Source: Eledone cirrhosa (Eukaryota). Taken from it: DNA of 64,000 nucleotides. Shown here in pieces: positions 16,901 through 60,247 of the stretch. Under the pieces are notes generated by a model. That model had not been told where the DNA came from. It did not search any database and saw only the letters and a list, made by a program, of their open reading frames with translations. How positions within the stretch are numbered: position 1 is the stretch's first letter; each line of letters begins with the position of its first letter. The position numbers and the translations under genes were made by a program. The DNA lies in contig OZ024743.1 in the NCBI GenBank assembly GCA_964016885.1, forward strand, positions 36,766,001 through 36,830,000, in the 5' to 3' direction.

Positions 16901-18044
16901 AGTTAATACTACATCAGTAAAATTAACAATAATAACGTCATGAAAAAAGCTACTAAGAGAAACCCTCGAAAATTTATCGCTAATACAGCAGGGAAAATTT
17001 AACGCTAATACAGCAGGGAACATCATAATATTAACGACATGAAAAAGCTACTAAGAGAAACCCTCGAAAATTTATCGCTAATACAGCAGGGAAAATTTAA
17101 CGCTAATACAGCAGGGAACATCATAATATTAACGACAATATGTAGGCTAAAATACCTTCGTAGATTAGGTGGATGGCTGGCTGGGAAAATTTGAATCAGC
17201 TCTAGTGGTACATTTTAGCAGAGAAGAATGGCAAAGTGTCTTATCTCTTCAATATTTTCAGATTGAATGAATTAGGTTAAAGACAGGGTAGTAAGCCTTA
17301 AAGAAGTGCATAGAGGGGGGGGGGGGGGGTAGGAACTGAGAGAGATACAATAGGATTAGAATACCGCATGGTAAATATCCAAGTTAATAAGTTAATACTA
17401 CATCAGTAAAATTAACAATAATAACGTCATGAAAAAGCTACTAAGAGAAACCCTCGAAAATTTATCGCTAATACAGCAGGGAAAATTTAACGCTAATACA
17501 GCAGGGAACATCATAATATTAACGACATGAAAAAGCTACTAAGAGAAACCCTCGAAAATTTATCGCTAATACAGCAGGGAAAATTTAACGCTAATACAGC
17601 AGGGAACATCATAATATTAACGACAATATGTAGGCTAAAATACCTTCGTAGATTAGGTGGATGGCTGGCTGGGAAAATTTGAATCAGCTCTAGTGGTACA
17701 TTTTAGCAGAGAAGAATGGCAAAGTGTCTTATCTCTTCAATATTTTCAGATTGAATGAATTAGGTTAAAGACAGGGTAGTAAGCCTTAAAGAAGTGCATA
17801 GAGGGGGGGGGGGGGGTAGGAACTGAGAGAGATACAATAGGATTAGAATACCGCATGGTAAATATCCAAGTTAATAAGTTAATACTACATCAGTAAAATT
17901 AACAATAATAACGTCATGAAAAAAGCTACTAAGAGAAACCCTCGAAAATTTATCGCTAATACAGCAGGGAAAATTTAACGCTAATACAGCAGGGAACATC
18001 ATAATATTAACGACATGAAAAAGCTACTAAGAGAAACCCTCGAA
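1981..18044. repeat. Tandem array of ~486-bp units (33 units plus a partial one), with internal ~98-bp and ~24-26-bp sub-duplications and a variable G-run
   Basis: G-runs recur at 2427, 2913, 3398, 3883 ... 17803; units are nearly identical. Confidence 0.98.
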
Positions 18045-20140: not shown

Positions 20141-23050
20141 TCAGGTGTAGTTTTGGCGTATTTCGGGAAGCATGAGTGTCTTAAAGGATGCAGTGTCTCG
20201 GCAGCTAACAACTGACGCAGGCAGTTTGTTCCATGCTTCAGCAACTCTGAGCGTGAAAAAATGTCTACGAAAGTCATGGGAGCTGTGCTGTTTTCTGATT
20301 TTGTAGGCATGTCCACGTGTGTTAGACACATGGAGATCAAAAAGGTGCTCAGGGTTGCAATTGGCGAGATGGTTAATAACTTTGTGGGTATGCCAGACGT
20401 CGGAGCTTCAATGAATCCATGCCCAGGGAAGCAAGGCGTTCAGAGTATGGTAGGTGTCTGATGGAGGGTATGCGCTTGGTTGCACGTCTCTGAACAGTTT
20501 CCAGGAGGTCAATGTTCTGAGCAAGATAGGGGTTCCAGACTGATGATGCGAATTCCAAGTGTGGTCGTACCATAGCTGTATACAGTTTTAAATAGATGGC
20601 TGGAGAGCGGCTAACAAAGGTCTTGCTGAGTGATGCCAAGACACCCTCGGCCTTCTTGACAATTTTAGAGACATGCTTTGTCCAATGCAAATCGCTGCTG
20701 ACAGTAATGCCCAGGTCACGTTCACAAGAGGACTTCTTGATATCAGTGTTGTGGAGGGAGTATGTGGACGCTGGATTTTTCCTTCCAAAATGCATGGTGG
20801 TACACTTGTCCACAGCCAGCTTCAGTTGCCAGTCTGTGATCCATTGCTGCATTGTGTTCAGGTCTGATTGTGGGAAAGAGTTGTAAATTTCAGGATCAGT
20901 CCTTTTGATTTCAAGGTACAGCTTGATGTCATCTGCATATTTCAGTATCGTGGCATTCTGTAAGTTGGCATCTATGTCATTAATATATGCCACAAACAAA
21001 AGGGGACCAAGAACAGATCCCTGTGGTACACCAGATGACATCTCATATGCTGAAGAATGCTGTCCTAGAACCGTGACTACTTCTTTTCGGCTGAGAATGA
21101 AGGATTTCAACCAGTCGAAAAGATCATCCCTCACACCCATTGCAGAGAGTTTTGCCATAAGTCTTTTGTGTGGCACAGAATTAAAAGCCTTAGCAAAGTC
21201 AAGGTAAACAACATCCACCCATGAGCCGCTGTCAGTGATCCGGGTGATGTCCTCAAGGAACTCGATAAGCTGATCACAGCAGCTGGAGTTAGGGATAAAT
21301 CCAAACTGTGAGGGCCGGATGAGGCTGTGAGAGCTCCAGAAGTTCCAAAGTGTTTCTCTGACACAGGATTCCATCAGTTTGGCCATACAGCTAGTAAGAC
21401 TGACTGGACGATAGTTGACAGGTGACATGCGGTTGCCCTTTTTGAACAGGGGAATGACACTGGCAGTTTTCCACTGCTCCGGAGTAGCACCATTGTTGAG
21501 ACAGTATTGAAAGAAGAAAGAAAGCTGGCGCAAAAGGAAATACCCGCCACGTTTGAGAAGCAGGTATGTCACCCCATCAAGACCAGGGGAGGCATAGTTG
21601 CGCTTATTCTTAAGGTGACGTCGCAACATTGCAGTTGTAAATTCCATAGTTGTTATGGAATTTGATGTTAGAGATGGTGGAGATGGTACATTCTGGTTTT
21701 CAACAGTAAAAATACTTGCATAGCACTCAGCAATGAGTTCTGCGCATTCTTTGGGATCGTCAGTGATCTGGCTTGTGTGGGGATTGCGAAGAGGACCAAC
21801 TGGAGAGTGAGGTCTCTGCTTTGAATGAACATATTTCCAGAACACCTTACTGTCAGGATTGGTTGCTATGCACTGTTCAAATTCAAGCACTGCCTTCTTT
21901 GTCACTTGCTTGAGATGGTTAGAAGATTTATTCCGCTTTTTTCTGTTGGCATCTGATCTATGCAGTTTATATTCCCGTTCAGCGTTCCAACGTTCTTTCC
22001 TGGCAAGTCGGACCGCTGAAGTTTCCCAAATTGCACTTTTGGGGTGGTTATTTTTCCACTTACATGGCACCGATGCTGCACACGCTATCCATATTGAGTC
22101 CAGGATGCTCTGGAGTATAGTGTTCACATCTCCAGAGTTATACATCTCATGCCAGTTTGGGCGCTGTAGCTCAGTGCAGTACAAGTTCCAATCCACCCTC
22201 TTCCAATCAAAGCAAGCAGATTGGAGATGGCTCTGGTTTTTGTTGCTGCCCTCAAGTGCCAGATTGGCAATGATCATAGCATGATCAGAGTCGCCTAGAG
22301 GTTCCTCAGTAGTACAACTGATAACCACTTCAGGAGTAGTGGTGAAGATCAGGTCCAAAGTGTTGTCACCTCTTGTTGGAGAGGTGACTACTTGTGACCA
22401 GTTTGAGTCCAGCACTAGTTCAAGGAAATCGTTTGCACCTTGTGGCCAACGAAAGGTTTCCCAATCGATCTCAGGATGATTGAAGTCACCTGCAATAAAC
22501 ACATAAGTGGCTGTTTTCTTGGCAGCAACTCTGAGGATATCGCAAAGCTGTGTGTCCTGATGGTAGTTTGGGGGGCGATACACAACACCAAGCAGAAGTG
22601 TTGACATGGTCATACGTATGTCACAGAAAAAAACCTTCTTCCTGTGATTCGTTCAAATCAACGCAAGGAATTACCGAAAAGTTTGAACGAACGTAGACCA
22701 TCACACCACCACCACGGCGATTAATGCGGTCCTTGCGGAAAAGGTTGTACCCAGTAATGCTGAAAACCCCATCACAGAGTAAGGAATGTGCCCATGTTTC
22801 TGTGACTGTGATGAAGTCAGGGTCGATGCTTCTGATGTAGGATTCAAACAGATGTATCTTGTTGCATTGTTATTGTTATTATATCATGATTCATACACTG
22901 TTCATTTTCCTGACACTTTATTATTCTATGTACTATACATGCACCTTTGATGAGTTGTAGTGCACCTGAGCACTGTACACAATAATTTCATTATTATTAT
23001 TATTATTAATAAACTGCGAGCATTTAAGGACAACAATTTGTACCCTGCTC
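20141..23050 (-). pseudogene. CR1 ORF2 (AP-endonuclease plus reverse transcriptase), disrupted
   Basis: LNARSL/CNK, VTETW, RKDR..RRGGGV, VYRPP, GDFN, LDLIF, NYRPVSLTS, YLDFAKAF, SGVPQGSVLGPLLF, YADD, NTRGH..K, FFTLRV..WNKLP; frameshifts near 22630 and 20390; insertion at 22868-23008. Confidence 0.93.
22868..23008 (+). mobile_element. Short CR1-tail element with (TTA)n tail inserted antisense into CR1 ORF2
   Basis: Removing it restores N-A-R-S-L-C-N-K (aat gct cgc agt tta tgc aac aag on the minus strand); at most a 2-bp AT duplication. Confidence 0.85.
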
Positions 23051-23092
23051 ACAGTTTATGATGGTGTGTAGAGGGTGGCAGGTTGTTCTGGT

Positions 23093-24304
23093 TTAGTTTC
23101 CCAGAGTTGTAACAGTTTTTACATTGCCAGTTATTGTGGGTAGATCACACTCAGACCAGCTGGTATCTCTCTTCCACGTTTCACCAGCCTTGACAAACCT
23201 CCAGATTTGCCCATCATCACGCAGACTAAAACTTTCATGTTGTGCTGAGTTCCGATTCAAGGAAGCTGCAGCACGGAGCTTTGGACGTACATGGGGTGGT
23301 AGGCCTGGGCGTGTTCGGAAGGTAATCCGATTTTCACGCCCAGCTTTAACAGAGGCCAGATGGTATGAGGTTGCCTCAGCGGAGTCCGAAAAAGACAGCC
23401 TGATGAGTCTGGGATTTGGACCAGGTCGACCAAGGCGGAGAGCACCCTTTGGGGGAACACAGCCTAGGTCTTTGGCTGAGCTGGCAGCAAATGCCTGAAG
23501 ATCAGCCTTGTCCTCTGGTACCCCAATGGCAATCACTTCATGGGTAGCAGATTCCGCAGTCTTTCCAGTGTGGCCAGATACGGCAAGAGGTACAGGGAGA
23601 TTCTTTATCAAGGCATTCCGATAAGACCCCTCATTGTGGGGTCCTACCCGAATGCTTGCCTTTATTCCTGTTATTTCCCTTTTTAAAGCAGAAATCATTA
23701 GTTGCAATTCTGCAAAATCTGTACTGGTTGGTTGTTGTTGTTGTTGCTGCTGTTGTTGCTGCTGCTGCTGCTGCTGTTGGTGATGATGATGTTCCTCCAC
23801 GGGAATGGTAGGGGAAGACACAGTCGCAGGTTGTTGGTGTCGAGATGTACTGGGAGCGGAAGACATGGGTTGTTGTTGTTTCTGATGTTCTCCCACAGGA
23901 ACAGCAGCAGAAGCCAGTGTCATAGGTTTTTGCCGTTGTTCAGTAACAATGGTAGAGGAAGATACAGTCATTGGTTTTTGTTGTTGTTGTTGTTGTTTTT
24001 CAATAACATTAGTGGAGGCAGGCACACAGGCCAGGCACTGAAAGGACCAGGATTTTAGCTGGACCATCTCCCAGATTCCATCCATCATAGCATTATGATG
24101 TCTCTTTTTTTGGCCTGGGATCCTCCGGAAGCCTGTGGCGCATTGAAGGCAGACAGAGATGTGACAGGTTCCACATTCGACCCAGCGATTACGGAACGAG
24201 TTTTCGGGTTCCGCACAGATATGGCAGATGTGGTTTTCTGGGCAATGTTCTATTTTGGAACATCGACCAGTTTTGTTGCATACTTCATCCATGGATATCA
24301 CCAT
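23093..24304 (-). CDS. CR1 ORF1: PHD-like finger, polyQ linker, coiled coil, RRM-like domain
   Basis: Intact 403 aa; CHIC...WVECGTC...CLQC...CLAC; FAELQLMISALKREI; VIAIGVPE...RLGR...RLIRLSF; lies directly upstream of ORF2. Confidence 0.85.
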   Translation of the reverse strand: MVISMDEVCNKTGRCSKIEHCPENHICHICAEPENSFRNRWVECGTCHISVCLQCATGFRRIPGQKKRHHNAMMDGIWEMVQLKSWSFQCLACVPASTNVIEKQQQQQQKPMTVSSSTIVTEQRQKPMTLASAAVPVGEHQKQQQPMSSAPSTSRHQQPATVSSPTIPVEEHHHHQQQQQQQQQQQQQQQQPTSTDFAELQLMISALKREITGIKASIRVGPHNEGSYRNALIKNLPVPLAVSGHTGKTAESATHEVIAIGVPEDKADLQAFAASSAKDLGCVPPKGALRLGRPGPNPRLIRLSFSDSAEATSYHLASVKAGRENRITFRTRPGLPPHVRPKLRAAASLNRNSAQHESFSLRDDGQIWRFVKAGETWKRDTSWSECDLPTITGNVKTVTTLGN

Positions 24305-25123
24305 GGCAATTTTGTTATTTCAACCCATCCGTAGAAAAACACAGAATGTAAACAATATAGGTTTAGCGCACTTGATTACGATAGAAATAAAATGTCTGTT
24401 TTTTGTTTTGTTTTTTTGTGTATTTTGTTTCCGTTTTCCTAAATGTTGTGTGTGTACAGAAGAGTCTGTGCATGTAAACAAATAAATATGCTGCGTAAGT
24501 TAAATGAAACGTACTGTAGAAGGCAACAGTTTATTAACAGCGAAATAACGTTTTTTTTCTGATACTGCTTCTTTATAATAAACTTTCAATAATATTTTTC
24601 AAATTATTAACTTTCAGCTGCTAGTATATATATATATAATTAAAAGGTGTATGTGGGTTAGAAGCAAAGTCAATGTTCAGAGATATTTTACCAATGTACG
24701 TGAGATTGGCCGGTATCGTGTCTCACACGAAATAGTGTGGTTTCTTTTCACGTGTGTGTATATGCATATGGTATATATCTGTATATAAATAAATCTGTGT
24801 GTATATTGTTGTTTATATGTTTTGTGAAGTACTTACTGCGATCCCTAAGGGATGTAGTGATTTGTTTGTTTTTTTCCCTTTTTCCCCGTCCATGTCCACA
24901 CGTGGTTTGTTGGCGAAAATCAAGTCAAATTAAATATACTTCGTTAAAATAATTCTATGTTGAAGCTGGTACTAGTTGTCAGGGAACAGTCAGAGTAATT
25001 GTGATAATGAATATTGTAATCCATCTGACATGTGTTTAAAGGGCAGTTTTTGGTGAAAATATATTTTGTTTGGTCAAGACGTGGTCAAGCGACCTTCCTT
25101 GTCGCCATCTTGGTTTCCTATAT

Positions 25124-36228: not shown

Positions 36229-42875
<6,647 letters not shown>

Positions 42876-43624
42876 CGGGATAGCAGGCAAACTAACAGGT
42901 AGGGAGAAATATGTATGCAGTAGATGTACAGGGAAATTAGACAGTAGAAGTCGCACTGATAGACACATTTTTCAAATGCGAGAGGGCGCTATAGAAGTGG
43001 TGGATAGCTTCCGGTACCTAGGAGATCAGATTAGCATGGGAGGAGGGTGTTCCGAGGCATAGTATCTAGAATAAGGACGGGTTGGAAGAAGTTTAGGGAG
43101 CTGCTTCCTCTGTTGACGAAGAAGGGTTTCTCCCTGCGTACGAAAGGCCGGTTGTATGATGCCTGTGTGAGGAGCGCGATGCTGCATGGTAGAGAGACAT
43201 GGGCAGCTACCGCAGAAGATATGCGACGGCTGGAGAGAAATGAGGCAAGCATGCTCCGTTGGATGTGCAATGTAAATGTGCGTGAACGACCCAGCATAAA
43301 TGTGTTGAGAGAGCAACTGTGTCTGAGAGGGATAGAATGTAGTGTACGGAGAGGAGACTGAGGTGGTATGGACATGTGATGCGCATGGAGGATGACCGAT
43401 GGGTGAAGAAGTGCCAGGAAATGCCAGTTGAAGGAAGACGTGGTAGAGGTAGACCACGAAAAACATGGGCGGAGGTGGTGAGAACAGACCTCAGATCATT
43501 GAAGCTCACGGTGGAGATGACGAGGGACCGTGACGAGTGGAGAGATGCTGTGCTGAATAAGACCCGTCCCACCCTTGCAAGCAGGGAAAAGCGGACGTAA
43601 AATGATGATGATGATGATGATGAT
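42876..43624 (+). mobile_element. 5'-truncated RTE-clade LINE inserted in (TA)n
   Basis: GIAGKL..YVCSRC...[10 protein letters not shown]...GGGC, then (frameshifts) [29 protein letters not shown]; ends GCGGACGTAAAA(TGA)n. Confidence 0.92.
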
Positions 43625-46130
<2,506 letters not shown>

Positions 46131-48847
46131 ACAGCAATGGTATGCTCTTGCTGCAGATGTGTGAGGAGCTGGATCTGTGTGTTACCAACACCATGTTCCA
46201 ACAAAAGAACAAATTCAAGACCACATGGATGCATCCTGCATCTAAGGAATGGCATCTTTTGGACTACGTCCTAGTCAGGATGCGTGACAGACAGGATGTG
46301 CGGTGTGTTCGTGTTCTTCGTGGAGCTGAGTGCTGGACGGACCACCGCCTGGTACGCGCAAAAGTGAATCTAATCACCAAACGTAAAATCCGGGCTCCTG
46401 GTGTTACCCTGCCCAAAAGATTGAATGCTGCTCGTCTTAAGGATAAAAATGTGAAGAGGACATTGGAAGAAGAGATGCAGGCTGCAGATCTTGGTGAGGA
46501 TTGGCCGACCCTTAAAAAGTCGGTTTATGATGTAGGCAGACGTGTTCTGGGATTGGTGCAGAGAAAACATCAGGACTGGTTTAATGAGAAAGATGTGCAT
46601 ATAGATGACTTGTTGGCTGATAAGAGGCGCGCTCTGTCACGCTACTTGACGGCAAGACCACAGGAGAGGAATACGTTGCATGAGGAGCTCAGGGATGTAA
46701 AATCACGTGTTAGGCGGAGTCTTTCTCAGATGAAGGATCAGTGGTGGAGTGAGAAGGCTGGTGAGATACAAACTGCGTCTGATTGCAATAACACAAAGCT
46801 GTTGTACAGTCTCTTGCGTGAGGTTTATGGACCGTCTTCTTCTCTGGTGACACCGATTCGCAGCAAGGATGGCAAAGAACTTCTTCGTGACTCACAGGGA
46901 ATTCTACGAAGGTGGCGGGAGCACTTTGATGATCTTTTGAATCAGCCGTCTGTCGTCAGTGAAGATTTCCTCAATCTCATTCCGGAAAGTCCTGTGAAAG
47001 TAGCTCTCGCAGAGCCTCCGACACTTGTGGAGGTTGCAGTGGCTATTTCGAAGCTGAACAGTGGAAGATCTCCAGGTATGGATGGCATACATGCTGAGCT
47101 CCTACAATATGGTGGTGAGAGACTCCTGCAACATCTTCACTCTCTGTTTGGAAGGATATGGGCTAATGAATCCGTGCCTGAGGACTGGAGAGATGCAGTA
47201 ATGGTGGTCTTGTACAAGGGAAAGGGTAACAGGAATGATTGTGGGAACTACAGAGGTATATCATTGCTTTCTGTCGTGGGAAAGTTTTATGTAGGGTGCT
47301 TCTGGACCGTCTGCTGACACACATTGCAGATTGTGTCCTTCCTGAAAGTCAATCTGGTTTTCGTGTTGGACGCGGCACTACTGATATGATCTTCTCAGCT
47401 AGACAGCTCCAGGAGAAGTGCATTGAACAGGGCTTGGATCTGTATCAGGTTTTGTCGATCTGACAAAGGCTTTCGATACTGTCAACAGAGATGCATTATG
47501 GAAGGTTCTCCAGAAACTTGGTTGCCCTGATAAGTTCCTTGCTTTAGTTAGGTCTTTCCATGACGACATGAAGGCTTGGGTTAATGTCGGAGGTAACATG
47601 TCGGAGCCTATCTCAGTAAAAAATGGAGTGAAACAGGGGGATATTCCAGCACCGACCCTGTTTGCCATATACTTTGCAATGGTTTTCTGTATTGCATTCA
47701 GGAATTGCGAGCATGGTGTTTACATCCGATATCGAACCTCAGGCAGCATATTTAACAATCAGGCGCTTTGCTGCGAAGACAAAAGTATTTACATCAGTCA
47801 TAAGAGACCTCTTGTATGCAGATGATTGCGATCTTGTAGCGCACACAGAGAGTGATATGCAACACATTTTGAATGTATTTTCTGACGCTTGCACTGCCTG
47901 CCTGGGTTTGACTGTCAGTCTCAAGAAAACCGTCGTCATGTACCAACCTGCACCTGGTAGGCAGTACACTGAACCAAACATCTATGTGTATGGCAAACGA
48001 CTTGGAGTGGTTGATCAGTTTGTCTACCTGGGAAGCACTGTCAATCGATACGGCAACCTTGACAGCGAAATCTCACTTAGGATTAGGAAAGCAAGTGATG
48101 CTTTCGGAAAGCTAGAAAGGCGACTCTGGGGTCGGCGAGACATATGCAGGAGGACAAAGGTAAGGGTGTACAGGGCATGTGTACTCTCTTGTCTTCTTTA
48201 TGCCTGCGAGACCTGGGTCACATATCGACGCCACCTTAAGCAATTGGAGCGTTTCCATCAGATGTGTCTCAGACGGATACATGGCGTTCGCTGGAGGGAC
48301 CACATCAGTGATGTCGAGATTTTGGAAAGCTCTATGTGTGACAGTATAGAAGCTCTTGTGCTTAAGCAGCGACTCCGTTGGAGTGGTCACCTTGCCAGGA
48401 TGAAGGATTCTAGAATACCAAAACAACTCTTCTATGGAGAGTTGGTTAAAGGAAAACGACCGCCACATAAACCAAAAAAGAGGTATAAGGATTCCTTGAA
48501 GGCCTCTCTGAAAGACGCTAACATCTCTGCTGATACATGGGAAAATATTGCTGCTGATCGTAATAAATGGAGAAAGACTGTATATGAGGGAAAAGTTGCC
48601 TTTGAGGCATCTCGAATCGCACACGAGAAAGTAAAGCGGGACGTGAGGAAGGGTATTGCTGTTGCACTTCCAGACGGCGAGGGTCCTCCTATGTTTCTGA
48701 CATGCAGCGTCTGTGCGAGACTCTGCCTAAGCAAAGCTGGACTCGAAAGTCATCTTCGCAGTCATAAAGTAAGACCAGTGGTTGACTACCAGGCTGCTGT
48801 TGGAGATGCTACTCATCATGCTTGCCAAACATGTGGTAGAGAATGTA
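46131..48847 (+). mobile_element. 5'-truncated BovB-like RTE LINE (end of APE, RT, C-terminal C2H2 fingers), running into an assembly gap
   Basis: NG.LLL..C....[66 protein letters not shown]...HLRSH; frameshifts near 47285, 47455, 47755. Confidence 0.93.
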
Positions 48848-49047
48848 NNNNNNNNNNNNNNNNNNNNNNNNNNNNNNNNNNNNNNNNNNNNNNNNNNNNN
48901 NNNNNNNNNNNNNNNNNNNNNNNNNNNNNNNNNNNNNNNNNNNNNNNNNNNNNNNNNNNNNNNNNNNNNNNNNNNNNNNNNNNNNNNNNNNNNNNNNNNN
49001 NNNNNNNNNNNNNNNNNNNNNNNNNNNNNNNNNNNNNNNNNNNNNNN
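48848..49047. other. Assembly gap (200 N)
   Basis: Run of n; contiguity across it is unverified. Confidence 0.99.
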
Positions 49048-49297
49048 ATAATATAATATATATATATATATTGATATAATATATATATATATGATATAAT
49101 ATATATATATATGATATATATATATATATATATATATATGATATAATATATTATATATATGATATAAATATATATATATATGATATAATATATATATATA
49201 TATATATATATGATATAATATATATATAATATAGATATAATATAATATATATATGATATAATATATATATATATGATATAATATATATATATATATG

Positions 49298-49349
<52 letters not shown>

Positions 49350-49466
49350 GATATAATATATATATATATATATAATATATAATATATGATATAATATATA
49401 TATATATATATATGATATAATATATATATATATATATATGATATAATATATATATATATATATATG

Positions 49467-49504
<38 letters not shown>

Positions 49505-49701
49505 GATATAATATATATATATATATATATGATATAATATATATATATATATATATGATATAATATATATATATATATATATGATATAATATATATATAT
49601 ATATATATGATATATATAATATATATATATATATATGATATAATATATATATATATATATGATATAATATATATATATATATATATGATATAATATTATA
49701 G

Positions 49702-49733
<32 letters not shown>

Positions 49734-49753
49734 TATAATATATATATATATAT

Positions 49754-49785
<32 letters not shown>

Positions 49786-50201
49786 GATATAATATATATA
49801 TATATAATATATATATATAATATATGATATATATATATAATATATATATGATATAATATATATATATATATGATATAATATATATATATATATATATATG
49901 ATATAATATATATATATATATATGAATAATATATATATATATATGATATAATATATATATATATATGATATAATAATATATATATATATGATATAATATA
50001 TATATATATATATGATATAATATATATATATATATGATATAATATATATATATATATGATATAATATATATATATATATGATATATATATATATATATAT
50101 ATGATATAATATATATATATATGATATAATATATATATATATGATATAATATATATATATATGATATAATATATATATATATATATGATATAATATATAT
50201 G

Positions 50202-50267
<66 letters not shown>

Positions 50268-50357
50268 TATAATATATATATATGATATAATATATATATA
50301 TATATGATATAATATATATATATGATATATATATAATATATATATATGATATAATAG

Positions 50358-50415
<58 letters not shown>

Positions 50416-50499
50416 ATAATATATATATATATATATATATGATATAATATATATATATATATATATATATGATATAATATATATATATATATATATATG

Positions 50500-50530
<31 letters not shown>

Positions 50531-50561
50531 GATATAATATATATATATATATATATATATG

Positions 50562-50599
<38 letters not shown>

Positions 50600-50653
50600 A
50601 TAATATATATATATATATATATATCATATAATATATATATATATATATATATG

Positions 50654-50684
<31 letters not shown>

Positions 50685-50715
50685 GATATAATATATATAT
50701 ATATATATATATATG

Positions 50716-50782
<67 letters not shown>

Positions 50783-51736
50783 GATATAATATATATATAT
50801 ATATATATATGATAAATATATATATATATATATATGATATAATATATATATATATAGATGATATAATATATATATATATATGATATATATATATATGATA
50901 TAATATATATATATATATATATATGATATAATATATATATATATATATATGATATAATATATATATATATGATATAATATATATATATATATATGATATA
51001 ATATATATATATATATATATGATATAATATATATATATATATATGATATAATATATATATATATATATATATATGATATAATATATATATATATATATAT
51101 GATATAATATATATATATATATATGATATAATATATATATATATATATATGATATAATATATATATATATATATGATATAATATATATATATATATATGA
51201 TATAATATATATATATATATATATGATATAATATATATATATATATATATGATATAATATATATATATATATATATGATATAATATATATATATATATAT
51301 GATATAATATATATATATATATATACGATATAATATATATATATATATATATATACGATATAATATATATATATATGATATAATATATATATATATATAT
51401 ACGAATATAATATATATATATATATATGATATAATATATATATATATATATGATATAATATATATATATATATATATGATATAATATATATATATATGAT
51501 ATAATATATATATATATATATATGATATAATATATATATATATATATATATGATATAATATATATATATATATATATGATATAATATATATATATATATA
51601 TATATGATATAATATATATATATATATATATGATATAATATATATATATATATATATGATATAATATATATATATATATATATATGATATAATATATATA
51701 TATATATATATATATGATATAATATATATATATATA
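49048..51736. repeat. Compound microsatellite (TA)n-TGATATAA
   Basis: Recurrent ATGATATAAT motif spaced by variable TA runs. Confidence 0.97.
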
Positions 51737-52251
51737 TGGTGGCTGCCAACTCGTTTTCGAGTACGGCCACTACTTTATATCCATGTAGGAGAACCCCTAC
51801 CGATACGCTGAACGAGTGTGACTTTTTAGTCTAACCAGCGACTTCAAACTCTGGTACAAACACTACACTTGTGACAATTATTGACACATAGTGCTGGGCC
51901 CATGGTACCATGTGACGACAAATGCAGAGAGATCTCCAGATATAAAGCAATGCCTGTGCCGTGAAGCTTTTATAGTGAGCAAAGGCACTGCACAAAGCCA
52001 GTCCCACTCTCTTAACCAAGATGATATTTACCAAAAAGAAGAACAAGTCAACATCATTGGATATCATCAGGGTTGCAGGTGTTATATCAGAGTTTTCCTT
52101 CTCCTAGAATTCTACCTTGACTAAGGCTAAGGGGTCATCTCTCCCGGTGATTTTGGATGGCCATTGACTCTTAAGAGCTCCTTTGACCTTTGACAGGTTT
52201 TGTTTTAGTCCTGCAGGATGTCCAAAGTCACCCTCCTCACCAAGAAACCTT
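51737..52251 (-). mobile_element. 515-bp non-coding island; right part resembles an RTE 5' UTR
   Basis: Minus strand reads ...GGTGAGGAGGGTGAC...AAAACCTGTCAAAGG...TAGCCTTAGTCAAGG...CTAGGAGAAGGAAAACTCTGA, a motif I recall from RTE 5' UTRs; no credible ORF. Confidence 0.5.
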
Positions 52252-52357
52252 GATATAATATATATATATATATATATGATATAATATATATATATATATA
52301 TATATAGATGATATAATATATGATATAAAATAATATATATATATATATATATGATAT

Positions 52358-52392
<35 letters not shown>

Positions 52393-52724
52393 TATATATA
52401 TCATAATATATATAAATATATATGATATAATATATATATATATATCATAATATATATATATATATATGATATAATATATATATATATATCATAATATATA
52501 TATATATATGATATAATATATATATATATATCATAATATATATATATATCATAATATATAATATATATATATATCATAATATATATATATATCATAATAT
52601 ATAATATATATATATATATCATAATATATATATATATGATAATATATATATATATGATATAATATATATATATATATCATATATATATATATGATATAAT
52701 ATATATATATATATCATATATATA

Positions 52725-52760
<36 letters not shown>

Positions 52761-53137
52761 TATATATATATAATACATATATATATATAATACATATATA
52801 TATATAATACATATATATAATATATATATATATATAATACATATATATAATATATATATATATCATATATATATATAATATATATACATATCATATATAT
52901 ATATAATATATATACATATCATATATATATATAATATATATATATATATCATATATATATATATATATATATATATCATATATATATATAATATATATAT
53001 ATCATATATAATATATATATATCATATATAATATATATATATCATATATAATATATATATATCATATATAATATATATATATCATATATAATATATATAT
53101 ATCATATATAATATATATATATCATATATAATATAAT

Positions 53138-53169
<32 letters not shown>

Positions 53170-53218
53170 ATATATATATATATATCATATATAATATATA
53201 TATATATATATAATATAT

Positions 53219-53250
<32 letters not shown>

Positions 53251-53299
53251 ATATATATATATATATCATATATAATATATATATATATATATAATATAT

Positions 53300-53333
<34 letters not shown>

Positions 53334-53419
53334 ATATAAATATATATATCATATATATATATATATCATATATATATATATATATATAATATATATATAT
53401 ATATAATATATATATATAT

Positions 53420-53458
<39 letters not shown>

Positions 53459-53465
53459 TATATAT

Positions 53466-53512
<47 letters not shown>

Positions 53513-53546
53513 TATATATATAATATATATATATAATCATATATAT

Positions 53547-53599
<53 letters not shown>

Positions 53600-53650
53600 A
53601 TATATAATATATATATATATATAATATATATATATATATATAATATATAT

Positions 53651-53682
<32 letters not shown>

Positions 53683-53816
53683 ATATATATATATATATAT
53701 AATATATATATATAATATATATATATATAATATATAATATATATAATATATATATAATATATAATATATATATAATACATATATATATAATATATATATA
53801 ATATATATATATATAT

Positions 53817-53874
<58 letters not shown>

Positions 53875-53886
53875 TATATATATAAT

Positions 53887-53917
<31 letters not shown>

Positions 53918-53926
53918 TATATATAT

Positions 53927-53969
<43 letters not shown>

Positions 53970-54053
53970 ATATATTATATATATAATATATATATAATAT
54001 ATATATATATATATTTATATATATAATATATATATAATATATATATATATAAT

Positions 54054-54085
<32 letters not shown>

Positions 54086-54113
54086 ATATATATATATAAT
54101 ATATATATATAAT

Positions 54114-54147
<34 letters not shown>

Positions 54148-54253
54148 ATATATATATATAAATATATATATAATATATATATATATAATATATAATATAT
54201 AATATATATATATAATATATATATAATATATATAATATATATATATATATAAT

Positions 54254-54311
<58 letters not shown>

Positions 54312-54624
54312 CATATATCATATATATATATATATCATATATATATATATATTTTATGATCATATATATATATATATATATATATCATATATATATAATA
54401 TATCATATATATATATATATATATCATATATATATATATATATATCATATATATATATATATATATATCATATATATCATATATATATATCATATATATA
54501 TATTATATATATAATATATATATATATATCATATATATATATATATCATATATATATATCATATATATATATATATATATATAATATATATATATATATC
54601 ATATATATAAATATATATATATAT

Positions 54625-54673
<49 letters not shown>

Positions 54674-54776
54674 ATATATATATATAATATATATATATAA
54701 TATATATATATATATATAATATATATATATAATATATATATATAATATATATATATATATATAAATATATATATTA

Positions 54777-54808
<32 letters not shown>

Positions 54809-54824
54809 ATATATATAAATATAT

Positions 54825-54869
<45 letters not shown>

Positions 54870-54884
54870 ATATATATAATATAT

Positions 54885-54929
<45 letters not shown>

Positions 54930-55225
54930 TATATATATAATATATCATATATATATATATATTTATATCATATATATATATATATTTATATCATATATAT
55001 ATATATATATATCATATATATATATATATCATATATATATATATATATATCATATATATATATATCATATATATATATATCATATATATATATATATATA
55101 TATCATATATATATATATATATATATCATATATATATATATATATATATCATATATATATATATATATATATATCATATATATATATATATATATCATAT
55201 ATAATATATATATATCATATATATA

Positions 55226-55284
<59 letters not shown>

Positions 55285-55785
55285 CATATATATAATATAT
55301 ATATCATATATATATATAATATATATATATATCATATATATAATATAATATATATATATATCATATATATCATATAATATATATATATCATATATATAAT
55401 ATAATATATATATATCATATATATAATATAATATATATATATATCATATATATATATAATATATATATATATCATATATATATATAATATATATATATAT
55501 ATCATATATATATATATATATATATAATATATATATATATATCACTCTTAAGAGCTCCTTGACCTTTGACAGTTTTGTTTTTAGTCCTGCAGGATGTCCA
55601 AAGTCACCCTCCTCACCAAGAAACCTTGATATAATATATATATATATATATATGATATAATATATATATATATATATATATAGATGATATAATATATGAT
55701 ATAATATAATATATATATATATATATATGATATCATATATATATATATATGATATGATATAAATATATATATATGATATGATATG

Positions 55786-55832
<47 letters not shown>

Positions 55833-55894
55833 GATATCATATATATATATATATATGATATGATATAATATATATATATATGATATGATATGAT

Positions 55895-55925
<31 letters not shown>

Positions 55926-56390
55926 TATATATATCATAATATATATATATATATATGATATAATATACATATATATATCATAATATATATATATATATGA
56001 TATAATATATATATATATATAATATATATATATATATCATAATATATATATATATATATGATATAATATATATATATATATCATAATATATATATATATC
56101 ATAATATATATATATATGATAATAATATATATATGATATAATATATATATATATATAATATATATATATATATATCATATATATAATACATATATATATA
56201 TATAATATATATATATATATATCATATATATATATAATATATATATATATCATCTATATATATATAATATATATATATATCATATATATATATAATATAT
56301 ATATATATCATATATATATATAATATATATATATATCATATATATATATAATATATATACATATCATATATATATATAATATATATATAT

Positions 56391-56421
<31 letters not shown>

Positions 56422-56428
56422 CATATAT

Positions 56429-56462
<34 letters not shown>

Positions 56463-56568
56463 ATATATATATATAATATATATATATCATATATAATATA
56501 TATATATATATAATATATATATATATATATAATATATATATAATATATATATATATATATCATATATA

Positions 56569-56599
<31 letters not shown>

Positions 56600-56679
56600 A
56601 TATATATATATCATATATAATATATATATATCATATATAATATATATATATATATAATATATATATATATATAATATAT

Positions 56680-56712
<33 letters not shown>

Positions 56713-57019
56713 CATATATATATATATATCATATATATATATATATATATAATATATATATATATATAATATATATATATATATCATATATAATATATAT
56801 ATATATATAATATATATATATATATTATATATATATATATATTATATATATATATATCATATATATATATATATATATAATATATATATATATATATTAT
56901 ATATATATATATCATATATATATATATATATATATAATATATATATATATATCATATATATATATAATATATATATATATATATCATATATATATATAAT
57001 ATATATATATATATATCAT

Positions 57020-57051
<32 letters not shown>

Positions 57052-57244
57052 ATATATATATAATATAGTATATATATATATATAATATATATATAATATA
57101 TATATAATATATATATAATATATATATAATATATATATATAATATATATAATATATATATATAATATATATATATATAATATATAATATATATATATATA
57201 ATATATAATATATATATATATAATATATTATATAATATATATAT

Positions 57245-57275
<31 letters not shown>

Positions 57276-57277
57276 AT

Positions 57278-57332
<55 letters not shown>

Positions 57333-57334
57333 AT

Positions 57335-57366
<32 letters not shown>

Positions 57367-57386
57367 ATATATAATATATAATATAT

Positions 57387-57419
<33 letters not shown>

Positions 57420-57453
57420 ATATATATATATAATATATATATATATATATAAT

Positions 57454-57485
<32 letters not shown>

Positions 57486-57500
57486 ATATATAATATATAT

Positions 57501-57531
<31 letters not shown>

Positions 57532-57568
57532 ATATATATATATAATATATATATATATATTAATATAT

Positions 57569-57613
<45 letters not shown>

Positions 57614-57686
57614 ATATATATAATATATATTAATATATATATAATATATATATATAATATATATATAATATATTATATATATTATA

Positions 57687-57720
<34 letters not shown>

Positions 57721-57762
57721 ATATATATATAATATATAATATAATCTATAATATATATATAT

Positions 57763-57794
<32 letters not shown>

Positions 57795-57823
57795 ATATAT
57801 ATATATAATATATATATTATAAT

Positions 57824-57855
<32 letters not shown>

Positions 57856-57867
57856 ATATATATATAT

Positions 57868-57912
<45 letters not shown>

Positions 57913-57914
57913 AT

Positions 57915-57951
<37 letters not shown>

Positions 57952-57997
57952 CATATATATATATATATTTATATCATATATATATATATATTTATAT

Positions 57998-58032
<35 letters not shown>

Positions 58033-58173
58033 TATATATCATATATATAATATATATATATATATCATATATATATATCATATTTATATATATCATATAT
58101 ATATATCATATATAATAATATATATATATATAATATATATATATATCATATATATAATATATATATATATATC

Positions 58174-58205
<32 letters not shown>

Positions 58206-58215
58206 TATATATATC

Positions 58216-58261
<46 letters not shown>

Positions 58262-58276
58262 ATATATATATATAAT

Positions 58277-58310
<34 letters not shown>

Positions 58311-58314
58311 ATAT

Positions 58315-58348
<34 letters not shown>

Positions 58349-58661
58349 ATATATATATATATAATATATATATATAATATATAATATATATATATATATA
58401 TATCATATATATATAATATATCATATATATATATATATTTATATCATATATATATATATATTTATATCATATATATATATATATTTATATCATATATATA
58501 TATATATATATCATATATATATATATATCATATATATATATATATATATCATATATATATATATATATATCATATATATATATATCATATATATATATAT
58601 ATATATATCATATATATATATATATATATATCATATATATATATATATATATATCATATAT
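52252..58661. repeat. Compound (TA)n microsatellite with TCATA/TAATA motifs, organised as a ~3.4-kb tandem duplication
   Basis: Unique anchor 52167-52251 is repeated at 55544-55629 and followed by the same rare variants (TAGATGATATAA). Confidence 0.85.
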
Positions 58662-58717
58662 AATAGGATATGTGTTCCTTCACGCATAAGGCGCTAAGGG
58701 ACGCATGTATTGTCCAA

Positions 58718-58795
58718 CTGACGAGAATCTTTCTTTGCAACGAAGGCCGTATGGTCTCCGTTTACTTTTGGGATTCGAAACCGATCGGTAAAGGT
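58718..58795 (+). ncRNA. 5'-truncated hammerhead copy (lacks the 5' strand of stem I)
   Basis: Begins exactly at the C of CTGACGA, fused to the inverted terminal segment. Confidence 0.75.
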
Positions 58796-59196
58796 AACTA
58801 TAGTAGGTAAAGTCAATTTTTAAATTTATTTTGAAACTTTTTCATTATTTGCTAAACCTTGTTTATATATGTTCTGGCTCGTTAATTTATTAACCTGCCA
58901 TTGAACCACATTGGCATTTGGTTGGACAATACATGCGTCCCTTAGCGCCTTATGCGTGAAGGAACACATATCCTATTATTACTACTCTCCGCTATTGTTG
59001 AGAGACAAATTGGGTTGTTCCGACTGCTGCTAGTGATAGTTGCGGCCGGTTTGACCTACCTCCCTCTGCCTCTATCTTTACTTCGGCCCTTGAAAAAAAT
59101 TGATTCCACTTCATTCACTCTCATCTCAGGAACAGTTTTGGATAGCGCTAGTTCGTAATTTAAATTCAAGAATTTTATATTCTTCGAATGAAAAGA

Positions 59197-59279
59197 ACCT
59201 TCTGACGAGAATCTTTCTTTGCAACGAAGGCCGTATGGTCTCCGTTTACTTTTGGGATTCGAAACCGATCGGTAAAGGT
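59197..59279 (+). ncRNA. Type I hammerhead ribozyme, complete copy 1
   Basis: ACCTT-CTGACGA-GAATC...GATTC-GAAA-CCGATCGG-TA-AAGGT; stem I ACCTT/AAGGT, stem II GAATC/GATTC, predicted cleavage after GUA (59274). Confidence 0.88.
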
Positions 59280-59681
59280 AACTATAGTAGGTAAAGTCAA
59301 TTTTTTAAATTTATTTTGAACTTTTTCATTATTTGCTAAACCTTGTTTATATATGTTCTGGCTCGTTAATTTATTAACCTGCCATTGAACCACATTGGCA
59401 TTTGGTTGGACAATACATGCGTCCCTTAGCGCCTTATGCGTGAAGGAACACATATCCTATTATTACTACTCTCCGCTATTGTTGAGAGACAAATTGGGTT
59501 GTTCCGACTGCTGCTAGTGATAGTTGCGGCCGGGTTTGACCTACCTCCCTCTGCCTCTATCTTTACTTCGGCCCTTGAAAAAAATTGATTCCACTTCATT
59601 CACTCTCATCTCAGGAACAGTTTTGGATAGCGCTAGTTCGTAATTTAAATTCAAGAATTTTATATTCTTCGAATGAAAAGA

Positions 59682-59764
59682 ACCTTCTGACGAGAATCTT
59701 TCTTTGCAACGAAGGCCGTATGGTCTCCGTTTACTTTTGGGATTCGAAACCGATCGGTAAAGGT
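59682..59764 (+). ncRNA. Type I hammerhead ribozyme, complete copy 2
   Basis: Same sequence as 59197-59279; predicted cleavage after 59759. Confidence 0.88.
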
Positions 59765-60164
59765 AACTATAGTAGGTAAAGTCAATTTTTTAAATTTATT
59801 TTGAAACTTTTTCATTATTTGCTAAACCTTGTTTATATATGTTCTGGCTCGTTAATTTATTAACCTGCCATTGAACCACATTGGCATTTGGTTGGACAAT
59901 ACATGCGTCCCTTAGCGCCTTATGCGTGAAGGAACACATATCCTATTATTACTACTCTCCGCTATTGTTGAGAGACAAATTGGGTTGTTCCGACTGCTGC
60001 TAGTGATAGTTGCGGCCGGTTTGACCTACCTCCCTCTGCCTCTATCTTTACTTCGGCCCTTGAAAAAATTGATTCCACTTCATTCACTCTCATCTCAGAA
60101 CAGTTTTGGATAGCGCTAGTTCGTAATTTAAATTCAAGAATTTTATATTCTTCGAATGAAAAGA

Positions 60165-60247
60165 ACCTTCTGACGAGAATCTTTCTTTGCAACGAAGGCC
60201 GTATGGTCTCCGTTTACTTTTGGGATTCGAAACCGATCGGTAAAGGT
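60165..60247 (+). ncRNA. Type I hammerhead ribozyme, complete copy 3
   Basis: Same sequence as 59197-59279; predicted cleavage after 60242. Confidence 0.88.

What the first reader, a model, noticed from the sequence alone, without database searches (positions are those of the whole stretch)
58662..58718. Perfect 57-bp inverted copy of the element's 3' end caps its 5' end
Seen: 58662-58718 is the exact reverse complement of 60374-60430. The same 57 bp is an ordinary internal part of every unit, so it is not a dedicated transposase TIR. The junction falls on the first C of the hammerhead core, and the 3' end merges into the target through TATTA microhomology. Known: PLE insertions often carry an inverted, truncated copy of their terminal repeat at the 5' end and favour AT-rich targets. 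Inference: both target strands primed reverse transcription at the same position of the RNA, pointing to PLE-type machinery acting in trans.
Basis: partly seen in the sequence, partly recalled or inferred. Interest (0 to 1): 0.75.

Follow-up and report, generated by a model that had tools for sequence, protein, structure and literature searches.

The report
Two-armed hammerhead retrozyme, Penelope footprint
The inverted 57 bases are real and are the short second arm of a non-coding jumping repeat with a predicted self-cutting RNA motif; in 49 of 57 two-armed copies of this family the arms end at two different fixed sites, as in the genome's Penelope retrotransposons, which likely means that a Penelope enzyme copies one RNA from both ends of a DNA cut.

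Summary
Observation confirmed: 58662-58718 is the exact reverse complement of 60374-60430. It is not a terminal inverted repeat. It is the short arm of a two-armed insertion of a 485-bp type I hammerhead tandem repeat (non-LTR retrozyme) in a (TA)n array. Across 145 loci, arms vary from 27 bp to 4.9 kb. Their 3' ends fall at two fixed unit sites, A (~153) and B (~260), and run into (TA)n. Of 57 two-armed copies, 49 use one A and one B, 1 is A/A, and only this window is B/B; a probable 36-38-bp target duplication whose end matches site B may explain it. Five coding Penelope-type copies in the genome show the same one-sided 'tail'. So Penelope machinery in trans is supported, but same-site priming is the exception, and the junction at hammerhead C3 is chance (1 of 168 arms). 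No autonomous partner sharing sequence and no RNA data were found. The scan noted this architecture before in other families of this genome; I found it in no paper searched.

The parts
58662..58718 (-). Short inverted arm: unit positions 204-260 (262 with microhomology), 5'-truncated, 3' end at site B; outer AATA may be target-derived
58718..60432 (+). Main arm: three units (484, 485, 483 bp) plus 263 bp, 5' end at unit position 1, 3' end at site B (262); all four units share a near-private variant (48C)
58718..58718 (.). Inner head-to-head junction, 1-nt microhomology (C); removes the 5' strand of stem I from the first hammerhead
59197..59279 (+). Complete type I hammerhead motif, unit 2 (stem I ACCTT/AAGGT, CTGACGA, stem II with 42-nt loop, GAAA, palindromic stem III, predicted cut after 59274)
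   Evidence: sequence; no Rfam match
59682..59764 (+). Complete hammerhead motif, unit 3
60165..60247 (+). Complete hammerhead motif, unit 4
59348..59354 (+). Site A (TATATAT, unit 147-153), the family's main 3' end; internal and unused as an end in this copy (shown for unit 2)
60427..60432 (+). Site B (TATTAT, unit 257-262), 3' end of the main arm, joined to the microsatellite
58628..58665 (+). Left copy of a probable target-site duplication (ATAT-C-(AT)11-C-(AT)3-AATA)
   Evidence: inference
60433..60468 (+). Right copy of the probable target-site duplication (one AT unit shorter)
   Evidence: inference
36230..63596 (.). Host compound (TA)n microsatellite array, with other insertions

Best explanation
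The 57-bp cap is the short second arm of one insertion of a 485-bp hammerhead tandem repeat (a non-LTR retrozyme), likely written by a Penelope-type reverse transcriptase/GIY-YIG endonuclease acting in trans that primes both ends of a cut in (TA)n DNA on one RNA. Shown: two head-to-head arms with random 5' ends, two fixed 3' ends (A about 153, B about 260), one of each in 49 of 57 two-armed copies, (TA)n targets, shared variants between arms. Inferred: the enzyme cuts both target strands; one 3' end starts reverse transcription inside the RNA at site A, the other at site B 109 nt downstream; the RNA is a circle or uncleaved multimer, so copying runs over the ribozyme site many times; the two truncated cDNAs are joined head to head by 0-13 nt of microhomology. 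This copy is the rare B/B case, probably because the left target end (..ATAATA) pairs with site B over 6 nt but with site A over only 3.
For: Arms: shorter arm 27-2392 bp, longest arm 4930 bp. Ends: of 168 arms in 122 elements at 120 loci, 105 end at 151-155 and 56 at 254-267, 7 elsewhere; 161 of 168 run into TA-type tracts. Microhomology alone does not choose the site: TATAT at 460-464 and TATA at 82-85 are used by 0 arms while TAT at 260-262 is used by 39. Pairing: A/B 38, A/A 1, B/B 1, one odd end 6, of 46 two-armed copies; an older subfamily (77-95% identity, 25 loci) gives 11 of 11 A/B (read by eye); 49 of 51 against 0.5, p 6e-13. Single-armed copies: 61 A, 14 B, 1 other. Coding elements with GIY-YIG hits (RT plus GIY-YIG by Pfam for L160, L163, L165, L170) show the same shape: 5 of 5 inspected two-armed copies (L165, L167, L171, L172, L173) end in TA repeats with a tail on one arm only (63, 39, 56 nt measured). 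The L160/L165/L173 terminal repeat carries a hammerhead-like motif with the same stem I core (CCTT/AAGG), a palindromic stem III, and its first end 80 nt after the predicted cut, the same as here. One template: 19 rare alleles shared by sister arms; 19 rare alleles present in all units of an arm against 6 in only some; e.g. L041 418T in all 11 units covering that site in both arms. Ribozyme: double-sided changes in stem I pair 4 (4 of 113), stem II pairs 1 and 3 (4 and 7 of 113), loop III AT to CG or TA keeps the palindrome. Literature: a PLE protein cuts and extends both strands and starts at two internal RNA sites that match the genomic tail (PMC11167929); inverted 5'-truncated copies, one-sided tails and (TA)n bias in PLEs (PMC8557442).
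Against: No autonomous element sharing sequence with the unit was found: 0 blastn hits in 25 GIY-YIG loci of 10,595 candidates, and PLE coding fragments near family copies were not continuous with their 5' ends. The window copy breaks the A/B rule. The tail (109 nt) is longer than the published 30-40 nt and the 39-63 nt of this genome's PLEs; both sites have TA microhomology, while the in vitro PLE started without homology and with no strand difference in start site (PMC11167929). Shared alleles fit one source locus as well as one molecule; sister arms were closest or tied in only 19 of 28 (strictly closest 7), with 53 rare alleles in one arm only. One unit of L036 carries another haplotype (48C, 132C, 169C), against a single monomer circle in that case. 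A cluster of B-arm 5' ends just upstream of site A (19 of 56 against 6 of 105; window chosen after seeing the data) did not repeat in the older subfamily (0 of 14, two at 106). Rfam gave no hammerhead match and the minimum-energy fold is not the hammerhead. Locus sets were picked by motifs, not at random.
Confidence: 0.8

Rival explanations
1. Same machinery, but the two arms come from two separate RNA molecules (or a linear multimeric transcript rather than a circle); the A/B rule is set by the geometry of the protein dimer, not by site occupancy on one RNA.
For: Shared alleles are expected if one source locus is expressed in a cell. L036 has one unit of another haplotype; L045 and L052 have variants in only some units. 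PMC11167929 found uncleaved RNA the main substrate in vitro.
Against: Private alleles fixed in every unit of long arrays (19 against 6) need a monomer bottleneck; arrays reach 10 units in one arm.
Confidence: 0.3
2. For this one copy, the short arm arose at DNA level: the free target end invaded or folded onto the finished 3' end of the main arm and copied 57 bases, rather than priming on RNA.
For: Both ends are B, seen in 1 of 57 two-armed copies; the arm is 100% identical to the main arm's end.
Against: Identity stops inside the (AT)n flank (C against G at the 7th base), so flank was not copied; L052 has an almost identical 58-bp B arm with an A main end, so such arms form without an own B end; the left target end gives a 6-nt match to site B.
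Confidence: 0.12
3. Twin priming by a non-Penelope LINE (CR1/L2/RTE type, also present in the window) produced the inversion.
For: Head-to-head arms with short junction microhomology resemble L1 twin priming (recalled); LINE-like ORFs lie in the window (not classified by a tool).
Against: No poly(A) or LINE tail; two fixed internal ends on both arms; identical footprint in GIY-YIG elements; tail described as unique to PLEs (PMC11167929).
Confidence: 0.05
4. A MITE with 57-bp terminal inverted repeats inserted at TA (Tc1/mariner type).
For: Perfect terminal inverted 57 bp and TA-rich flanks in this copy.
Against: 76 of 122 elements have no detected inverted arm; arm length 27-2392 bp; the two ends differ in 49 of 57 two-armed copies; the 57 bp is internal to every unit.
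Confidence: 0.01

Closest known systems
Metazoan non-LTR retrozymes (Cervera and de la Pena 2020, PMC7229834; Li, Clavereau and Pollet 2026, bioRxiv 10.64898/2026.07.22.740005)
   Same: Non-coding tandem units of a few hundred bp, one type I hammerhead per unit, dispersed multicopy, low GC, coexisting with PLEs; proposed circle template and PLE mobilisation.
   Different: The passages read describe no head-to-head arms, fixed 3' ends or tail ('inverted' 0 occurrences in PMC7229834). Stem II here carries a 42-nt loop. Expression, cleavage and circles are shown there and untested here; no PLE terminal repeat homologous to this unit was found.
EN+ Penelope-like elements (Craig et al. 2021, PMC8557442; Poseidon PAc, Frangieh et al. 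2024, PMC11167929)
   Same: 5' truncation, partial tandems, inverted 5'-truncated copy at the 5' end, tail on one end only, (TA)n target, two internal start sites downstream of a hammerhead (first site 80 nt after the cut here; 85-92 nt in PAc by my arithmetic from the paper).
   Different: No ORF; tail 109 nt instead of 30-40; both sites have TA microhomology to the target; near-strict one-A-one-B pairing, whereas PAc in vitro showed no strand difference in start site.
Non-autonomous Chlamys elements such as MRC1 (PMC8557442, passage read)
   Same: Non-coding PLE dependants with multicopy head-to-tail insertions.
   Different: They share 3' sequence with autonomous families and mostly lack hammerheads; no such partner was found here.
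L1 twin priming (recalled, no call)
   Same: Two target ends prime on one RNA, giving a 5' inversion with junction microhomology.
   Different: There the first primer uses the poly(A) end and the second a variable internal site; here both sites are internal and fixed and arms can be many units long.

Membership tests
Non-LTR retrozyme | Tandem repeats of about 50-970 bp with a type I hammerhead in each unit | tested here: met
   485-bp units, three complete motifs in the window; compensatory changes in stems I and II; Rfam did not detect it
Non-LTR retrozyme | Non-coding, no LTR/PBS/PPT arrangement | tested here: met
   No frame of 100 aa or more inside 58718-60432; no LTR-internal-LTR layout in 145 loci
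Non-LTR retrozyme | Dispersed multicopy with signs of retrotransposition | tested here: met
   355 exact site-A junctions, 421 and 633 matches to two internal motifs; variable 5' truncation
Non-LTR retrozyme | Self-cleavage in vitro (monomer or dimer) | not testable with these tools
   Predicted only; palindromic stem III suggests dimer form (duplex -16.6 kcal/mol; PMC4209133 passages)
Non-LTR retrozyme | Expressed as linear and circular RNA | not testable with these tools
   No RNA holder listed
PLE-type insertion | Inverted 5'-truncated copy adjoining the 5' end | tested here: met
   46 of 122 elements, 11 more
PLE-type insertion | Two internal 3' ends (tail), often on one end only | tested here: met
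   Sites A and B, 49 of 57 two-armed copies A/B; tail 109 nt, longer than the published 30-40
PLE-type insertion | AT-rich or microsatellite target, TSD often not discernible | tested here: met
   161 of 168 ends in TA-type tracts; candidate TSDs with a C or G in 28 of 122 but all inside periodic repeats
Autonomous PLE | ORF with RT and GIY-YIG endonuclease | tested here: not met
   No ORF; no PLE coding sequence continuous with any arm
PLE pLTR derivative | Sequence similarity to the terminal repeat of an autonomous PLE | tested here: inconclusive
   0 blastn hits in 25 PLE loci out of 10,595 candidates; only motif-level likeness to the L160 family
MITE (Tc1/mariner) | Fixed TIRs at both ends of all copies | tested here: not met

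The most novel reading that the evidence does not exclude
The Penelope 'tail' is the record of a division of labour: one enzyme dimer holds a single small RNA circle and primes the two target strands at two different fixed sites, the first at A and the second at B, so retrozyme arrays are rolling-circle cDNAs made in one insertion. The conserved block around site A (unit 98-200) is the protein-binding signal, and the B/B copy in this window shows that a better-pairing target end can switch the site.
Probability: 0.4. Interest if true: 0.75.

Novelty: new member of a known kind. Interest (0 to 1): 0.52.

Why it matters
Which enzyme moves animal retrozymes, and how Penelope elements make their inverted arms and one-sided tails, are open questions in the papers read. 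This family gives genomic evidence by insertion anatomy rather than by co-occurrence, plus a 485-nt non-coding substrate with two mapped start sites and a candidate binding block that can go straight into the published in vitro PLE assay. The 57-bp cap itself is an ordinary, slightly atypical product of that process.

Tried and rejected
Rfam at gathering and E-value thresholds: no hammerhead match, only AT-repeat noise. Free folding did not give the hammerhead. Junction at C3 as a signal: rejected (1 of 168). 5' ends at the predicted cleavage site: 4 of 161 at 71-75, p 0.09, and 13 of 161 at 68-86, p 0.011 uncorrected and confounded by TATA microhomology at 82-85; not claimed. Stalling of B arms just past site A: strong in the first three sets, absent in the fourth, whose motif excludes some short B arms; left as a lead. 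Search for an autonomous partner by blastn and tblastn: none. Sequencing runs: no RNA holder listed; contigs of 4 of the 5 listed runs did not span the window junction and showed no joint, which says nothing on absence. TSD search: not separable from repeat periodicity in general. The 485-bp satellite at 2012-18044 is unrelated (no blastn hit, no hammerhead motif in the 1.3 kb scanned). Paper searches found no paper describing two-armed retrozyme insertions or Penelope twin priming; the library lacks most subscription papers, and supplements (including those of the bioRxiv preprint and Figs S1-S2 of PMC11167929) were not seen.

Full report
Observation. The arm 58662-58718 is the exact reverse complement of 60374-60430; identity ends at once inward and after 6 more bases outward in AT repeat. 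The 57 bp lie forward in all four units. The element (58662-60432) is a 1.77-kb island in a 27-kb compound (TA)n array. The main arm has units of 484, 485, 483 and 263 bp. Unit numbering below starts at the C of CTGACGA (59202 = 1).

The unit. Each unit holds a type I hammerhead motif read from the sequence: stem I ACCTT/AAGGT, core CTGACGA, stem II GAATC/GATTC with a long loop, GAAA, palindromic stem III, cut predicted after position 73. Rfam does not detect it and free folding prefers other structures. In 113 locus-haplotypes pulled by pattern, pairs are kept in 94-100% of cells, with double-sided changes at stem I pair 4 (4), stem II pair 1 (4) and pair 3 (7), and loop III changes that keep the palindrome; one diverged copy has a 3-nt loop that breaks it. 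These changes come from few subfamilies, so they are a few events. A palindromic helix III is described for dimer-acting metazoan hammerheads (PMC4209133, passages).

Census. The window is G000:C4:36766001-36830000 in a 3.0-Gb genome. Four locus sets were taken. Set 1: the window plus 39 loci from the 40 scored of 1847 candidates. Set 2: the 55 loci not yet held among the first 100 of 421 matches to a motif just before site B. Set 3: the 25 C1 loci not yet held among the first 100 of 355 matches to the site-A junction, chosen to undo the bias of set 2. Set 4: 25 of the first 30 loci of 633 matches to an older-subfamily motif; 5 duplicates dropped. In the tally I dropped one 73% hit (L077) and one 30-bp partial duplicate (L144) and merged an interrupted arm (L149). 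Short arms seen by eye in L089, L152, L177 and perhaps L140 were counted as single-armed; they would be A/B.

Result. In sets 1-3 (122 elements, 168 arms) 105 arms end at 151-155 (site A), 56 at 254-267 (site B) and 7 elsewhere; 161 of 168 run into TA-type tracts. 5' ends are spread over the unit; only the window's is at position 1. Single-armed: 61 A, 14 B, 1 other. Two-armed (46): 38 A/B, 1 A/A, 1 B/B (the window), 6 with one odd end, three of which end in non-TA sequence and look interrupted. Set 4 adds 11 of 11 A/B although the site-B sequence has diverged. Shorter arms are 27-2392 bp and inner junctions overlap by 0-13 nt in 39 of 46. A fixed TIR is excluded, and so is the idea that the arm copies the copy's own end (L052). 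Better TA microhomologies in the unit (460-464, 82-85) are never used as ends, so position is directed, not only paired.

Why this copy is B/B. The left flank ends C-(AT)11-C-(AT)3-AATA and the right flank begins ATAT-C-(AT)10-C-(AT)3-AATA; this pattern occurs nowhere else in 2 kb on either side, and its short form 4 other times in 4 kb. I read it as a probable 36-38-bp target duplication. The left target end would then finish ATAATA, which pairs with site B (TATTAT) over 6 nt and site A over 3. This is inference from one locus.

Penelope link. A GIY-YIG search gave 150 scored matches of 10,595 candidates; 15 loci with long frames were fetched, and Pfam found RT plus GIY-YIG in 4 of 7 frames scanned, RT alone in 2 and GIY-YIG alone in 1 (RT scores partly under the curated cut-off). 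Five loci with clear inverted arms were inspected at both ends: all five end in TA repeats with a tail on one arm only (63, 39, 56 nt in three families). In one family the first end lies 80 nt after a hammerhead-like cut site, as here. An earlier scan note (e1-8665226) gave the lead that PLEs here share the footprint; my A/B reading was written before that look-up. No sequence-level partner was found.

One template? Near-private variants run through all units and both arms in young copies (window 48C in its main arm; L041, L055, L058). Sister arms share 19 rare alleles, but 53 are in one arm only, mostly in older copies, and sisters are closest or tied in 19 of 28. Rare alleles fill all units in 19 cases and some units in 6. 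This favours a monomer bottleneck such as a circle but does not exclude one homogeneous source locus. B-arm 5' ends cluster at 109-158 in sets 1-3 (19 of 56 against 6 of 105; arms of 200 bp or more 9 of 36 against 4 of 86; scan test on those long arms alone p 0.35), as if stopped by the A-primed complex, but 0 of 14 do so in set 4.

Literature seen. bioRxiv 10.64898/2026.07.22.740005: parts 1-3 of 5 (all main text): retrozymes linked to PLEs by co-occurrence and terminal-repeat homology, no insertion anatomy. PMC11167929: parts 1-2 of 4 (main text): both strands cut and extended, two internal starts equal the tail, no homology needed, no strand difference. PMC8557442: passages. PMC7229834: passages: circle-templated tandem cDNA and PLE mobilisation proposed. 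PMC4209133: passages. L1 twin priming is recalled. Five searches found no description of two-armed retrozymes; supplements were not seen. Eight earlier scan notes report the same architecture for other unit sizes in this genome; they are unchecked AI notes and not evidence.

Verdict. Real feature; a new member of the non-LTR retrozymes with a Penelope-type insertion footprint. The value lies in the family-wide one-A-one-B rule and the testable substrate. Interest 0.52.

Noticed in passing
window 2012-18044: Satellite of 485-487-bp units with 98- and 25-bp sub-repeats; same period as the retrozyme by coincidence, no sequence likeness and no hammerhead motif in the part scanned.
   Followed up: partly
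window 20373-24319 (-) and 46100-49056 (+): A 759-aa ORF and a 408-aa upstream ORF that look by eye like a LINE ORF2 and ORF1, and RTE-like fragments inside the microsatellite; family names recalled, not tested.
   Followed up: no
unit 98-200 (window 59299-59401): Most conserved block between subfamilies of 75-85% identity, more than the ribozyme loop; contig depth in three runs of one sample also peaks over it. Candidate protein-binding signal.
   Followed up: partly
L160:3250-3600, L165:6080-6310, L173: Terminal repeat of a coding PLE family holds a hammerhead-like motif with core TTGAAAA in place of CTGANGA, missed by a standard pattern; L160 has an open 938-aa RT+GIY-YIG frame.
   Followed up: partly
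L036 second arm, unit 3: One unit carries 48C, 132C and 169C, a haplotype otherwise seen in other loci: template switch, mixed multimer or gene conversion.
   Followed up: no
L091 5' junction, L082 3' junction: Stuttered copies of the site-A-proximal motif upstream of L091, and a doubled site-B motif at the L082 end: possible abortive re-priming.
   Followed up: no
L116, L195, L139, L155: Family copies sit in the TA tracts at the ends of, or beside, PLE fragments, i.e. shared targets.
   Followed up: no
L161:6510-7419, L170:1174-2506 and 7718-9901, L162, L166, L169: Several other hammerhead-bearing repeat families, some two-armed, lie in the PLE loci fetched.
   Followed up: no
L137 (G000:C1:33999400-34002000): The only A/A two-armed copy found.
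   Followed up: no
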